Assembly: GCA_046759445.1 (NCBI GenBank)
Contig: JBHICG010000035.1
Coordinates: 1 to 34,157 of the forward strand
From: Candidatus Scalinduaceae bacterium
Lineage (GTDB): Bacteria; Planctomycetota; Brocadiia; Brocadiales; Scalinduaceae
Reading direction: 5' to 3'
Length of the DNA: 34,157 nt
Made by a program: the position numbers. Shown here in pieces: positions 24,001 through 27,000 of the stretch. The first letter of the stretch is position 1. Each line of letters starts with the position of its first letter.

Positions 24001-27000
24001 AAAATTCAGTGAAATCATAAACAAACATGGAGGAAAGGCACTAGGTGGTATTGGTTCTGAAAAATGTAGCAATGAAGATAATTATGTGTTTCAGAAATTC
24101 TGCAGGTCTGTGTTAGGAACTAATAATATAGATAATATGGCGAATTTAAAGTCGCCTTCGTTGAATCGATTGATTCAGTATTCTATTAAGAATGGGATTG
24201 CAACGACATCACTGGAAGAAATAGAAAACGCAGACACATTATTTTTTGTGGGGGCAGATGTAACCGAAGCGCATCCTGTGATTGGGAACATGGCGAGAAA
24301 AGCAATAAGATTGAACAAATCAAAACTAATCATTGCGAACGTAAGAAATGTTGAATTCAATAGCATCGCAAAAAAGGATGTGCGTCTTAATTATGCTATA
24401 GGTAGTCAAACCGCCTTAATTAACTCATTAATTAAGGTGATTATTGATGAAAAACTTATAGACATAAAGAAAGTTGAAAGCTCAACGGAAAATTTCAAAG
24501 AATTACGTTCCATGCTAAAAACATTTGCTATAAAGAAGGCGTCTAAATTAACGAATGTTCCTGAAGATAGCATAAAAAGAGCGTCTGTTTTATTAACAGA
24601 ACATGGAAATTGTTATATTATCTGTGGCAAAGATATAGAGGAAGATACACATGGTGAGGATACAATTAAAGCCCTGATGAATCTTAGTGTATTGCTAAAT
24701 GCCGTTTATAGTTTAAAACCTGGTGGCGGCAGGGTCTCACTTCTGTTTTCAAGAACTAACAATAATTCTCAGGGCGTAAATGATATGGGTGTTGTTCCTG
24801 ATTTCTTACCTGGTTATCTCGATATAAATGACCCGACAAATAGAAAAAAGGTGGAAGAATCATGGGGGATGAAATTATCTGATGATGTCTATAAGAAGGA
24901 CTCTAAAGATGTTTTTGATCTTGCCTTAAGTAATAAAGTAAAAGCTTTCTATGTCATGGGAGAAAACCCCATCGTAAGTTATCCAAATGGCAAGAAGGCA
25001 AAAGAAGCCTTTCAAAAAGCCGATTTTGTAGTTGTACAGGATAACTTCCTAACTGAAACCGCACAAATTGCAGATGTTGTTCTTCCCACCTCAACGTATG
25101 CTGAAAAGGAAGGCACATTTACGAACATGGGGATGACTGTGCAACGTTTGAACAAGGCCATACAGCAGATGGGAGATTCTAAACCTGATTGGCAGATTAT
25201 ATGTGACTTAGCCAAAAAGATGGGGGATTCATACTCGTATATATCTCCTAAAGAGATTATGAGTGAAGTAGGAAATAGTGTTTCTATATATGAAGGAATT
25301 GAAAATAACAATTTGGAAAAGGAAGGTTTTCGTTGGATATCTTCAATATACAATAAATGTGAACCTGTAAAGTATAAATTTGAAATTTTCAAGTCAGAAC
25401 CTTTGATTATGAAGGAAAGCAAAAAATATCCGTTCATATTATTAACAGGTCATAGTTTAAATCATCAAGGTACTTTTTCTAGAAATTCGAGTTCTCTTGT
25501 TTCAGTTGCTTCTGAATGTTTTGTGGAAATTAATAAAAAAAATGCGCAAAAGGCAAATATCAAGGATGGAGAGATGGTAATAATTGAGTCTGCGCAGGAC
25601 AAGATAAAACTCAAGGCAAAGACCACAAGCAGAGTACCTGAAGGCGCTGTTTTTGTTTCTGAGGATTATGAGTGGGCGCCTATTAACAATTTGCGTAATA
25701 ATGGATACACAAATGTAAAAATTTCTAAGGCTTACTAATAATAAATGGGAAATAAAGGACAAACATATTTTTGTGAAATTTGCAGACAAAAGGTAGAGGT
25801 TGTTGAAGATGGTTTTGGAGTGCTTGTATGCTGTGGTGAAGAGATGAAGCTGGTTGGAGAAAAAGGTATGATGGCTACCTGGACATCAGCACATCCTAAG
25901 CCAGATGGAGGTGTGATTTATGTCTGCAATGAATGTGGCCAGAAGATAAGGGTTGTGGAAGAAACTACTGGCATATTGGAATGTTGTGGCCAAAGAATGC
26001 AACGCAATGAGGTAGGTGTCAACTAATTGGGGAAATGTTTTGGAGATTCTGTAGCCGTATTGGGCGGGCCTACATGATCGGGAATCTATTTTCGGATCAA
26101 AATGCAATAAATTTGTGACCAACGGGAGCTAATTTATGTTAGACGCGATTATATTCACTATAATTGCAACGATTAAGATAGCCATAGTCATTGGTTTACT
26201 CCTTATTGCCATTGCGTATCTTATATGGGTAGAACGCAAAGTCATGGCTCATATGCAGGTAAGACTTGGACCTATGAGAGTAGGATGGCATGGTTTGCTA
26301 CAGCCCATAGCAGACGGACTCAAATTAATATTCAAGGAAGACATCATCCCGACTAATGCTGATAAGACTATATTCGTGCTTGCACCAGTAATAGCTACTG
26401 TTCCAGCACTCATGACGTTTGCTGTTATTCCTTTTGGAGATAAGATAAGCATAATGGGACTTAATATTGATATGGTCATAACAGACGTGAATATAGGCAT
26501 ACTTTACATCCTTGCAATTACGTCTATGGGTGTTTATGGCGTTGTATTAGCAGGATGGTCCTCAAATAATAAATATTCTTTATTGGGTGGATTGAGGTCT
26601 GCTGCGCAGATGATTAGCTATGAGCTTTCACTAGGTCTTGCGCTGATAGGTGTCCTCATGATTACACAATCACTGAGCCTTGTTGACATTGTAAATGCGC
26701 AAGCCAAATGCTGGTTTGTAATATTACAGCCTATAGGTTTTCTTATATATGCCATAAGCGCCATTGCTGAAGTAAACAGATGCCCGTTTGATTTGCCAGA
26801 AGCGGAGACAGAACTGGTTGCAGGATTCCATACCGAATACAGCAGCATGAAGTTTGCCCTTTTCTTCATGGCTGAATATGCCAATATCGTAACTGTTTCT
26901 GCTATTGCCGTTACTTTCTTCTTTGGTGGATGGAGAGGCCCATTCCTCCCGCCTGTGGTTTGGTTTTTAATCAAGTTAGCTCTGTGCATATTCTTTTTTA

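What a model noticed while it worked through the whole genome (the two positions that open the first line are those of the whole stretch)
25745..26026. A tandem-desulforedoxin protein encoded inside the complex I operon between nuoG and nuoH
The 14-gene nuoA-N operon of this genome holds a fifteenth gene, g02020 (93 aa), 7 bp after nuoG and 110 bp before nuoH. It is made of two desulforedoxin-type Fe(Cys)4 modules (each with a CxxC pair and a CC pair; all eight cysteines present). The arrangement nuoG - desulforedoxin - nuoH is kept in at least half of all Brocadiales and is almost unknown outside the order, so anammox complex I very probably has an extra small iron-thiolate electron-transfer subunit on its NADH-oxidising arm, whose NuoE/NuoF/NuoG look like the HydC/HydB and formate-dehydrogenase-type subunits of electron-bifurcating enzymes (NuoF carries additional ferredoxin-like cluster domains).
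Evidence so far: call 141: gene order and coordinates on C35 18051-33874, all on the plus strand. call 134: protein sequence printed; Pfam Desulfoferrod_N twice (aa 3-36, E 3.5e-12; 57-86, E 4.5e-7); NCBIfam TIGR00319 57 bits (cut 36); best Swiss-Prot hit desulforedoxin of M. gigas 59%. call 138 (neighbours.tsv, floors): Desulfoferrod_N next to NADHdh (NuoH) in 48 of 91 Brocadiales and 53 genomes in all, of 9624 with both families; next to Fer4_Nqo3 (NuoG) in 50 of 91 and 51 in all; Desulfoferrod_N present in 82 of 91 Brocadiales against 15% of Planctomycetota and 7% of Bacteria. call 141: NuoF g02018 606 aa with Complex1_51K, NADH_4Fe-4S and extra Fer4 domains, best Swiss-Prot hit [FeFe]-hydrogenase beta su [...]
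(Added by a program. Inside this text positions count along the whole contig: contig position 1 is position 1 of the stretch shown here. "Call 12" and the like, gene names such as g00115 and contig names such as C1 are that model's own, and its searches are not shown. The text may have been shortened before it was handed on; [...] marks where a part breaks off. The agent that wrote the report below was given it as the finding of a first reader that could run no searches.)

Follow-up and report, generated by a model that had tools for sequence, protein, structure and literature searches.

The report
Two-domain desulforedoxin gene in anammox complex I
A small, strongly conserved gene for a protein made of two fused desulforedoxin iron-binding units sits between nuoG and nuoH in the complex I operon of two families of anammox bacteria, and it looks more like a detachable single-electron shuttle serving the NADH-handling part of the enzyme than a fixed extra subunit.

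Summary
Window 25745-26026 (+) encodes a 93-aa protein with two desulforedoxin modules and all eight cysteines, between nuoG and nuoH.

In the order, 66 of 92 genomes carry the full-length protein:
- 57 have it directly after nuoG, and 55 of these show nuoH behind it.
- 9, forming one Scalindua-like clade, have it beside an NADH:rubredoxin-reductase-like gene in a rubrerythrin/peroxiredoxin cluster. Their nuoG and nuoH abut without it.
- Two close relatives of this genome lack nuoE, nuoF, nuoG and the gene together.

It is missing from three of the five families that carry hydrazine synthase, and was not found in 378 other Planctomycetota.

NuoF resembles the B subunits of electron-bifurcating enzymes. 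NuoG resembles formate dehydrogenase but has Lys-Ser at the catalytic Cys-His position.

Best reading (about 0.5): a rubredoxin-like one-electron carrier tied to the NADH-oxidising module and bound transiently. A fixed 15th subunit (about 0.25) is not excluded.

No paper in the searched library mentions it. This scan reported the same gene three times before on other genomes.

The parts
25745..26026 (+). Tandem desulforedoxin gene (Dx2), 93 aa, stop codon included
   Evidence: Orthologues are 65-82% identical with 29 invariant columns. dN/dS is about 0.1.
25751..25852 (+). Module 1 (aa 3-36), Cys10/13/29/30
   Evidence: Pfam stretch 3-36. Aligns with D. gigas desulforedoxin (1cfw/1dxg) over residues 3-34. 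Fold match to 1dxg_A: TMt 0.97, rmsd 0.4 A over 36 residues.
25853..25912 (+). Conserved linker (aa 37-56), consensus xKGMMATWTxVHHKPxGG, predicted helix at 42-49
   Evidence: M42, W46, T47, P53 and G56 are invariant; M43, T45 and H50 are nearly so. Helix H42-49 in the model. The other tandem Dx proteins read have no such linker.
25913..26002 (+). Module 2 (aa 57-86), Cys61/64/80/81
26027..26135 (+). Spacer between Dx2 and nuoH; its last ~40 bases (ribosome-binding region of nuoH) are shared with the relatives that lack nuoEFG-Dx2
   Evidence: alignment of flanks. No promoter-like or terminator-like site in 25400-26400.
23096..25738 (+). nuoG, 880 aa, formate-dehydrogenase-alpha-like, with Lys-Ser where FdsA has the catalytic Cys-His
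   Evidence: (6tg9_A, E 4e-124).
21279..23099 (+). nuoF, 606 aa, HydB/NfnB-like, with N-terminal 2Fe-2S-like and C-terminal 2x[4Fe-4S] domains
20703..21206 (+). nuoE (HydC/HoxE-like thioredoxin-like 2Fe-2S protein). Together with nuoF, nuoG and Dx2 it forms the block that is absent from G089 and G090.
18051..20681 (+). nuoA, nuoB, nuoC, nuoD
26136..33874 (+). nuoH, I, J, K, L, M, N

Best explanation
The gene encodes a single-chain 'pseudo-dimer' of desulforedoxin: two rubredoxin-type Fe(Cys)4 centres joined by a conserved, partly helical linker. It most likely works as a one-electron carrier that serves NADH-oxidising flavoprotein modules. In most Scalinduaceae-like (f1) and Brocadiaceae-like (f4) genomes its partner would be the HydB/FdsA-like NuoEFG module of this complex I, with which it is co-encoded. 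It would dock transiently, take single electrons from an exposed Fe-S cluster, and pass them to soluble acceptors such as superoxide reductase, rubrerythrin-like peroxidases or flavodiiron proteins. The reverse direction is also possible. Shown here: the gene, its domains, its conservation, its three genomic states (in the operon; moved next to a rubredoxin-reductase-like gene; lost together with nuoEFG), and purifying selection. Inferred: iron binding, redox function, the partners, the direction of flow, and that binding is transient.
For: (1) Family and fold. Two desulforedoxin modules score above the curated cut-offs and carry all eight Cys. One module superimposes on 1dxg_A (TMt 0.97, rmsd 0.4 A). 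The model has pLDDT 81 and pTM 0.71. (2) Conservation. 57 of the 66 carriers in the order have the gene directly after nuoG. dN/dS is about 0.10-0.13 in all groups. (3) Link to the NADH arm. G089 (same genus) and G090 have nuoB-C-D directly followed by nuoH. They have no orthologous NuoG (best hit 38-39% identity) and no tandem Dx anywhere in the genome. The flanks of the missing nuoE..Dx2 block align with the window. (4) Carrier behaviour. In 9 genomes forming one clade (support 100/99, sister to this genome's copy) the gene follows a 457-aa Pyr_redox_2 + Rubredoxin_C protein. That gene sits in a cluster with AhpC, rubrerythrin-like proteins, a rubredoxin::Dx fusion, NifU, a single Dx and a ferritin-like protein. 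In 8 of the 9, nuoG and nuoH abut, with 33-165 bp between the hits. This genome has the same cluster on contig C84 without the tandem gene. (5) Possible acceptors in this genome: 3 SOR-domain genes and 1 rubredoxin. (6) An RNA-library contig of 286 nt covers 25747-26032 with no differences. This is a hint of expression only. (7) Passages of PMC10156729 list neelaredoxin, flavodiiron proteins, rubrerythrin and an NADH:rubredoxin reductase across anammox genera, and an Fdp-rubredoxin operon only in Scalindua.
Against: There are no biochemical or structural data. The gene lies mid-operon and is tightly packed: 6 bases after the nuoG stop here, and overlapping the nuoH start in G049. That is typical of stoichiometric subunits and unusual for a free carrier. 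The conserved linker, kept even after relocation, suggests a specific and perhaps stable interface. This genome already has other Dx and rubredoxin genes for its rubredoxin-reductase cluster, so the need for another carrier is unclear. The comparative signal rests on few events. There was one gain, one relocation and probably one co-loss, since NuoD and NuoH of G089 and G090 are closer to each other (92-93%) than to G000 (85-90%). Expression is not proven: the tool warns that DNA can be present in RNA libraries.
Confidence: 0.5

Rival explanations
1. Fixed 15th subunit. The protein is permanently bound to the peripheral arm, for example on NuoG, and adds two Fe(Cys)4 centres as an extra entry or exit branch of the Fe-S wire.
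For: The mid-operon position is conserved in 57 of 66 carriers across two families. Spacing is tight or overlapping. The gene is lost together with nuoEFG. The linker is invariant. From my own knowledge, not from a call: small metal-binding accessory subunits of complex I are known (NDUFS6 in mitochondria and alpha-proteobacteria, Nqo15 in Thermus).
Against: Eight genomes keep an orthologous nuoEFG-nuoH operon without the gene in it, and encode the gene beside a rubredoxin-reductase-like gene instead. Three hzsA-bearing families lack it. No fusion to any Nuo protein appears among the 123 hits in 1.84 billion representatives.
Confidence: 0.25
2. Bifurcation partner. The HydB-like NuoF makes this a flavin-based electron-bifurcating or confurcating complex I, and the tandem Dx is its high-potential one-electron partner, with ferredoxin as the low-potential one.
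For: NuoF matches the B subunits of structurally solved bifurcating enzymes over its whole length (9bov_B, 7t2r_B, 8oh5_B, 9n5u_B, 7q4v_B; E 1e-224 to 1e-214). Passages of PMC3578206 propose that the similar Kuenenia/Nitrospina 'NUO-2' reduces ferredoxin by reverse electron flow. The roughly -35 mV potential of D. gigas desulforedoxin is recalled, not taken from a call.
Against: No data bear on potentials or activity. Family f3 has NuoF homologues that reach into the C-terminal ferredoxin-like part yet has no Dx2. The relocated copy sits in an oxidative-stress type cluster, not an energy-metabolism one.
Confidence: 0.1
3. Structural or assembly factor. The Cys4 sites hold zinc (or deliver iron), and the protein helps to fold or mature NuoG and the N-module, with no role in electron transfer.
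For: Cys4 knuckles can bind zinc. The position right after nuoG and the co-loss with nuoEFG fit a module-specific helper.
Against: The adjacent CC pair and the spacing are those of the iron protein desulforedoxin, with 53% identity and rmsd 0.4 A to 1dxg_A. The relocated copy sits among rubredoxin-type redox proteins.
Confidence: 0.1
4. Hitch-hiker. The gene is merely co-transcribed and has no functional link to complex I.
For: Gene order alone cannot prove function. The gene can live elsewhere in the genome.
Against: The position is kept across two families at 65-82% identity with dN/dS of about 0.1. The gene disappears from the whole genome when nuoEFG does. Its second home again follows an NADH-dependent flavoprotein.
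Confidence: 0.05

Closest known systems
Desulforedoxin of Desulfovibrio (Megalodesulfovibrio) gigas (PDB 1DXG/1CFW; Pfam PF06397, TIGR00319)
   Same: Same Cys pattern C-x2-C-x15-C-C. E 4e-8 over residues 3-34. Fold TMt 0.97, rmsd 0.4 A, 53% identity.
   Different: The known protein is a 36-aa chain that forms a homodimer (dimer state recalled, not from a call). Here two modules are in one chain, joined by a conserved 20-residue linker with a predicted helix, and the gene lies in a complex I operon.
Other multi-module Dx proteins in metagenomes (P0025 80 aa, P0007 73 aa, P0067 81 aa, P0063 = 2 Dx + SOR domain, P0006 with 3 Dx stretches matched)
   Same: Two or more Dx modules in one chain.
   Different: At most 49% identity, and mostly single-module matches. 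None has the MMATWT..H.KP linker. Their genomic context is unknown, because that library holds none.
Desulfoferrodoxin (2Fe-SOR, TIGR00320; PDB 1DFX, 1VZG)
   Same: Its N-terminal domain is the same module.
   Different: No SOR catalytic domain: 49.5 bits against a cut-off of 146.9, and no PF01880 match.
Rubredoxin with NADH:rubredoxin oxidoreductase (oxidative-stress electron chain of anaerobes)
   Same: A small Fe(Cys)4 carrier encoded next to an NADH-dependent flavoprotein. In 9 genomes the tandem Dx follows a Pyr_redox_2 + Rubredoxin_C protein.
   Different: Not a member of the rubredoxin family: no PF00301 match. It has two centres per chain, and its usual genomic partner is complex I.
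Bfu-type enzymes (HydABC, NfnABC, StnABC, NiFe-HydABCSL) and NAD-dependent formate dehydrogenase FdsABG
   Same: NuoF resembles their B subunit and NuoE their C/gamma subunit. NuoG resembles FdsA.
   Different: Here the module is joined to a full membrane arm (nuoA-D, H-N). NuoG has Lys-Ser instead of the catalytic Cys-His. None of the chain names listed is a Dx-type protein.
'NUO-2' of Nitrospina gracilis and the second complex I cluster of Kuenenia (KsCSTR_45490-45710)
   Same: The Kuenenia orthologue KsCSTR_45590 falls inside that cluster (passages of PMC7709395). The extra Fe-S clusters in NuoF and NuoG are described in passages of PMC3578206.
   Different: The passages read from those papers do not mention the small gene, and public records call it 'hypothetical protein' or 'Desulfoferrodoxin N-terminal domain-containing protein'. 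PMC3578206 says the FMN site is apparently lacking. Here the glycine-rich loop reads GLRGRGGGGFET; among the 24 of 38 related loci where the loop pattern was found, it reads ...GGGGFPT in 19 and ...GGGGFET in 5. So I leave the question of the FMN site open.

Membership tests
Desulforedoxin / Desulfoferrod_N (PF06397, TIGR00319) | Profile score above the curated cut-off | tested here: met
   PF06397 scores 64.4 bits (cut-off 23) in 2 stretches. TIGR00319 scores 57.3 bits (cut-off 36.05)..
Desulforedoxin / Desulfoferrod_N (PF06397, TIGR00319) | Four cysteines spaced C-x2-C-x15-C-C, including the adjacent CC pair | tested here: met
   Present in both modules. All eight Cys are invariant in 65 sequences. 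The same spacing is seen in the 1cfw alignment.
Desulforedoxin / Desulfoferrod_N (PF06397, TIGR00319) | Desulforedoxin fold | tested here: met
   1dxg_A: prob 1.00, TMt 0.97, rmsd 0.4 A over 36 residues. The E-value is weak (0.18) because the chain is short. Model pLDDT 81.
Desulforedoxin / Desulfoferrod_N (PF06397, TIGR00319) | Chain of about 36 aa that forms a homodimer | tested here: not met
   One chain of 93 aa holds two modules. Whether they pack like the dimer could not be read from the model output.
Desulforedoxin / Desulfoferrod_N (PF06397, TIGR00319) | Binds iron in a distorted tetrahedral Fe(Cys)4 centre | not testable with these tools
   Needs metal analysis and UV-vis/EPR on the protein.
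Desulfoferrodoxin (2Fe superoxide reductase, TIGR00320) | C-terminal SOR catalytic domain (PF01880) | tested here: not met
   TIGR00320 scores 49.5 bits (cut-off 146.9). No PF01880 match.
Rubredoxin (PF00301) | Profile match | tested here: not met
   No PF00301 match at E<=1e-3.
Complex I subunit (accessory) | Encoded within the nuo operon, on the same strand, closely spaced | tested here: met
   No terminator-like or promoter-like site in 25400-26400.
Complex I subunit (accessory) | Co-occurs with the core subunits wherever that complex occurs | tested here: inconclusive
   In the operon in 57 of 66 carriers. Relocated in 9, and 8 of those have an intact nuoG-nuoH junction. Absent from f2, f3 and f5. 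Lost with nuoEFG in G089 and G090.
Complex I subunit (accessory) | Co-purifies with, or is seen in a structure of, the complex | not testable with these tools
   No anammox complex I structure appeared among the solved chains matched. The 2016 complexome paper is not held.
Bfu-type bifurcating module (for NuoEFG) | B subunit with FMN/NADH domain plus N-terminal 2Fe-2S and C-terminal 2x[4Fe-4S] domains | tested here: met
   Full-length matches, E 1e-224 to 1e-189.
NAD-dependent formate dehydrogenase (for NuoG) | Catalytic Cys/Sec-His at the Mo/W site | tested here: not met
   Aligned to the 'CH' of 6tg9_A/9wxb_B, the window has 'KS'. 'KSP' is seen in all 18 orthologues matched by the pattern, out of 33 aligned.

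The most novel reading that the evidence does not exclude
The complex I of Scalinduaceae and Brocadiaceae is a hybrid of a Bfu-type (HydB-like) flavin module and a proton-pumping membrane arm. The tandem desulforedoxin is its dedicated third redox partner: either a bound 15th subunit or the high-potential leg of a bifurcating/confurcating reaction that also involves ferredoxin. That would be a way for anammox cells to make or spend low-potential electrons that has not been described for any complex I.
Probability: 0.15. Interest if true: 0.85.

Novelty: new variant of a known kind. Interest (0 to 1): 0.55.

Why it matters
Anammox bacteria must push electrons uphill from quinol to NAD(P)H and ferredoxin for CO2 fixation, and how their unusual complex I does this is unsettled (passages of PMC3578206; PMC7709395). 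The operon holds a conserved, lineage-restricted two-centre iron protein, and that protein is gained, moved and lost together with NADH-oxidising modules. It is therefore a concrete candidate for the electron partner of the enzyme, whether in energy metabolism or in oxygen-stress defence. The candidate is also easy to test, because the protein is about 10 kDa and should be readily expressed. In public records it is 'hypothetical'. It is easily missed in proteomic databases built on older annotations; I did not check this point.

Tried and rejected
- **Complex prediction, NuoG (alignment A2, 33 rows) with Dx2 (A1, 65 rows).** No answer, score 0.00. This is neither for nor against binding.
- **Formate:quinone oxidoreductase reading of the operon.** Rejected for this NuoG, which has Lys-Ser in place of the catalytic Cys-His.
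- **Search for fusions of Dx2 to Nuo proteins.** Among the 123 hits in the representative library, the seven long ones scanned are NHL-repeat proteins (six) or have no family (P0023). These are most likely chance matches to the DGGV..Y.C stretch. No fusion was found.
- **RNA evidence.** Contigs of two RNA runs from one study cover parts of nuoG, all of Dx2 and parts of nuoH. None bridges a gene junction, and contig depth cannot rank genes. Co-transcription is not shown.
- **Papers.** The complexome paper of de Almeida et al. 2016 is not held, so I could not see whether the protein co-migrates with complex I. A search for the locus tag 'kuste2660' found nothing.
- **Foldseek against the PDB.** No match at E<=0.001, because the modules are so short. 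I used the row for 1dxg_A for its TM-score and rmsd only.
- **Locus L047 (G082).** It passed the tblastn context test, but my ORF/motif filter did not recover it. It is therefore left out of the alignment, tree and dN/dS. I did not look into why.
- **dN/dS.** 17 of the 43 f4 pairs were dropped (dS of 3 or more, or not positive). The remaining dS values are above 1, so the ratios are rough.
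Full report
**1. The observation**

The ORF at 25745-26026 (+) is open and gives 93 residues. 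It starts 7 bases after the last base of the nuoG stop codon. nuoH starts at 26136, so 109 bases lie between them.

- Pfam finds Desulfoferrod_N twice: 64.4 bits in all against a cut-off of 23, with the best stretch at residues 3-36.
- NCBIfam TIGR00319 gives 57.3 bits against a cut-off of 36.05.
- The full superoxide-reductase model TIGR00320 stays far below its cut-off (49.5 against 146.9), and there is no SOR domain.
- Each module has C-x2-C-x15-C-C: C10, C13, C29, C30 and C61, C64, C80, C81.

The surrounding 14 genes are nuoA-N, all on the + strand. The scan found no promoter-like or terminator-like site around the gene.

**2. The protein**

- Module 1 aligns with D. gigas desulforedoxin (1cfw/1dxg), E 4e-8.
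- An AlphaFold model from 65 orthologues has pLDDT 81 and pTM 0.71. It shows a helix at residues 42-49 in the linker.
- One module superimposes on 1dxg_A with TMt 0.97 and rmsd 0.4 A over 36 residues.
- Across 65 orthologues, 29 columns are invariant. These include all eight Cys and M42, W46, T47, P53 and G56 of the linker.
- Pairwise dN/dS against the window copy has medians of 0.105 (12 f1 operon copies), 0.133 (9 relocated copies) and 0.115 (26 usable of 43 f4 copies). dS is above 1, so these figures are rough.
- The computed pI is 5.1 and the mass 10.2 kDa.

**3. Distribution**

Within the order, 84 of 92 genomes (this one included) have some match, and 66 have a full-length tandem protein at E<=8e-37. 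I fetched all 66 places and searched them with the window's NuoG and NuoH and with three proteins of a second cluster.

| Context of the tandem gene | Genomes |
|---|---|
| nuoG-Dx2-nuoH | 55 |
| nuoG-Dx2, then the contig ends | 2 |
| Other context (section 4) | 9 |

By family, 23 of 28 genomes of f1 and 43 of 47 of f4 carry the gene. Families f2 (0 of 2), f3 (0 of 14) and f5 (0 of 1) do not.

- Where I looked in those families, nuoG-like and nuoH genes lie next to each other with no Cys-motif ORF between them. This covers G001 and G002 of f2 and six f3 genomes. In G091 (f5) no NuoG-like hit lay within 3.3 kb upstream of nuoH.
- All five families hold hydrazine synthase alpha (f2 2 of 2, f3 8 of 14, f5 1 of 1). 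The gene is therefore a trait of two anammox families, not of anammox bacteria as a whole.
- The four f4 genomes without the gene (G017, G024, G038, G052) also gave no nuoH match at E<=1e-60. Their state is unknown.

Outside the order:

- None of 378 other Planctomycetota genomes sampled matched at E<=1e-8.
- HMMER over 1.84 billion cluster representatives found one full-length relative (70% identical) and one fragment. All other hits were single modules, other multi-module Dx proteins at 49% identity or less, or NHL-repeat proteins.

**4. The second home of the gene**

The nine exceptions are G069, G070, G072, G073, G075, G078, G084, G085 and G086, all of genus g3. In these the gene follows a 457-aa protein with Pyr_redox_2 and the 'Rubredoxin NAD+ reductase C-terminal domain'. 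Behind it come a 77-aa rubredoxin-like::Dx fusion and a rubrerythrin-family protein. An AhpC/TSA peroxiredoxin, a second rubrerythrin-like protein, NifU, a single Dx and a ferritin-like protein lie nearby.

- The window's own genome has this cluster on contig C84, with 169 bases where the tandem gene would be.
- In eight of the nine genomes the orthologous nuoG (70-72% identical) and nuoH (79-82%) abut, with 33-165 bases between the hits. For G069, nuoH was not found.
- On a maximum-likelihood tree of 65 sequences, the nine relocated copies form one clade (support 100/99). That clade is nested in f1 and is sister to the window's copy (98/83). This points to a single move out of the operon.

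**5. Loss together with nuoEFG**

In G089 (same genus as the window) and G090, the operon reads nuoB-C-D-H.

- Neither genome has an orthologous NuoG: the best hits are 38-39% identical, against 67-73% in G077 and G083.
- Their best NuoF-like hits are 52-54% identical, against 76% for the G077 gene that lies directly upstream of its orthologous nuoG.
- Neither has a tandem Dx anywhere.
- The end of nuoD and the last ~40 bases before nuoH align between the three genomes. The missing piece is therefore the block from nuoE to just beyond Dx2.
- NuoD and NuoH of G089 and G090 are closer to each other (91.6% and 93.3%) than to the window (84.7-90.3%), so this is probably one event.
- G088 has neither the gene nor a nuoH match. 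G077 is broken at the junction by contig ends. G083 has nuoG and nuoH 34 bases apart and no tandem Dx in a genome that is 78% complete.

**6. The neighbouring subunits**

- NuoF matches the B subunits of solved bifurcating enzymes over its whole length: 9bov_B, 7t2r_B, 8oh5_B, 9n5u_B, 7q4v_B, 8a6t_B and 7p5h_B, at E 1e-224 to 1e-190. Ordinary complex I NuoF chains match only the core, at E 1e-122 or weaker.
- NuoG matches FdsA of NAD-dependent formate dehydrogenase (9wxb_B, 6tg9_A; E 1e-125 and 4e-124) better than any complex I NuoG.
- Where FdsA has the catalytic 'CH', the window's NuoG has 'KS'. This holds in all 18 orthologues caught by my pattern, out of 33 aligned. It is not a formate dehydrogenase.
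- Passages of PMC3578206 describe a similar 'NUO-2' in Nitrospina and Kuenenia and propose ferredoxin reduction by reverse electron flow.
- Passages of PMC7709395 give the Kuenenia cluster as KsCSTR_45490-45710. The Kuenenia orthologue of the small gene is KsCSTR_45590, annotated 'hypothetical protein'.
- A more distant second nuoG/nuoH-like locus in that Kuenenia genome G049 (NuoH 55%, NuoG 28% identical) has no Dx-type ORF between nuoG and nuoH (L135).

**7. Expression**

Two DNase-treated metatranscriptome runs from one study hold 46% and 37% of the sampled words of 24800-26800.

- One 286-nt contig covers 25747-26032 without a difference.
- Other contigs cover parts of nuoG and nuoH with 0-1 differences.
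- None bridges a junction.

This is a hint of expression, not a proof.

**8. Reading**

Three independent kinds of event tie the gene to NADH-oxidising flavoprotein modules:

- its stable place behind nuoEFG;
- its disappearance together with nuoEFG;
- its only other home, behind a rubredoxin-reductase-like enzyme.

The last of these, together with intact operons that lack the gene, fits a diffusible rubredoxin-type carrier better than a fixed subunit. The tight spacing and the invariant linker keep the subunit reading alive. I put the odds as follows:

| Reading | Probability |
|---|---|
| Carrier | 0.5 |
| Fixed subunit | 0.25 |
| Bifurcation partner | 0.1 |
| Zinc or assembly factor | 0.1 |
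| Unrelated passenger | 0.05 |

Likely downstream acceptors exist in this genome: three SOR-domain genes and the rubrerythrin-like genes. Passages of PMC10156729 list the same enzyme set across anammox genera.

**9. Novelty**

Searches of the held library found no paper linking the two. The term pairs were 'desulforedoxin' with 'anammox', with 'nuoG' and with 'NADH dehydrogenase'; 'anammox', 'desulfoferrodoxin' and 'nuo'; 'KsCSTR_45590'; and 'Kuenenia' with 'HydABC' and 'complex I'. The one hit for 'NADH dehydrogenase' is a SOR database paper, seen as a listing only.

The 2016 complexome paper and the supplements of the papers read were not seen and could bear on this.

This scan reported the same gene on three other genomes (e1-2931055, e1-2627490, e1-2529360) with the same carrier reading. 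I reached that reading from my own calls before looking them up.

To my knowledge, the following are new compared with the lines of those notes that I could see:

- the co-loss with nuoEFG inside the window's own genus;
- the absence from three hzsA-bearing families;
- the single-clade tree for the relocation;
- the Lys-Ser replacement in NuoG.

Noticed in passing
L112 (G049:C1:2656520-2660798) 1248-1794: In the Kuenenia genome a toxin-antitoxin pair (PHD_like antitoxin of 112 aa, E 2e-16; HicA toxin of 76 aa, E 2e-7) is inserted between nuoG and the tandem Dx gene. The Dx gene stays attached to nuoH, its stop codon overlapping the nuoH start. The other g21 genomes (L102, L109) also show about 1 kb between the nuoG hit and Dx2.
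   Followed up: partly
L117 (G089:C55) and L116 (G090:C154): Close relatives of this genome have an operon that reads nuoB-C-D-H without the NADH module. G089's NuoC carries an N-terminal KAEEK-repeat extension (198 aa against 168 aa). The electron donor of this form is unknown.
   Followed up: partly
G083:C293:526-2151; G089:C29:22006-23574; G088:C41:13012-14580; G083:C48:6212-7792: Single in-frame TGA codons occur in a NuoG orthologue (G083) and in NuoF-like paralogues at 54-55% identity. These may be selenocysteine or sequencing errors; I did not examine them.
   Followed up: no
window 30376-30790: A 415-base gap lies between nuoL and nuoM. It holds a 69-aa ORF (30440-30649, TTG start) with no Pfam match.
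   Followed up: no
L076 (G000:C84) 1586-7681: Oxidative-stress type cluster in the window's own genome: AhpC/TSA, two rubrerythrin-family proteins, a rubredoxin-reductase-like flavoprotein with a C-terminal zinc-ribbon, a rubredoxin-like::Dx fusion (77 aa), PHP, NifU, a 40-aa Dx and a ferritin-like protein. A third single Dx (39 aa) lies beside thioredoxin and DsbD on C7 (L077).
   Followed up: partly
L017, L026, L028, L055, L069 (genera g26, g17): In some Brocadiaceae-like genomes 650-1100 bases separate Dx2 from nuoH, against 12-40 bases in most. I did not look at what is inserted.
   Followed up: no
window 313-5128 (-): One T2SSF gene and two tandem T2SSE/MshEN ATPase genes (a type II secretion / type IV pilus set) lie at the start of the window. 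They are ordinary and unrelated to the finding.
   Followed up: no
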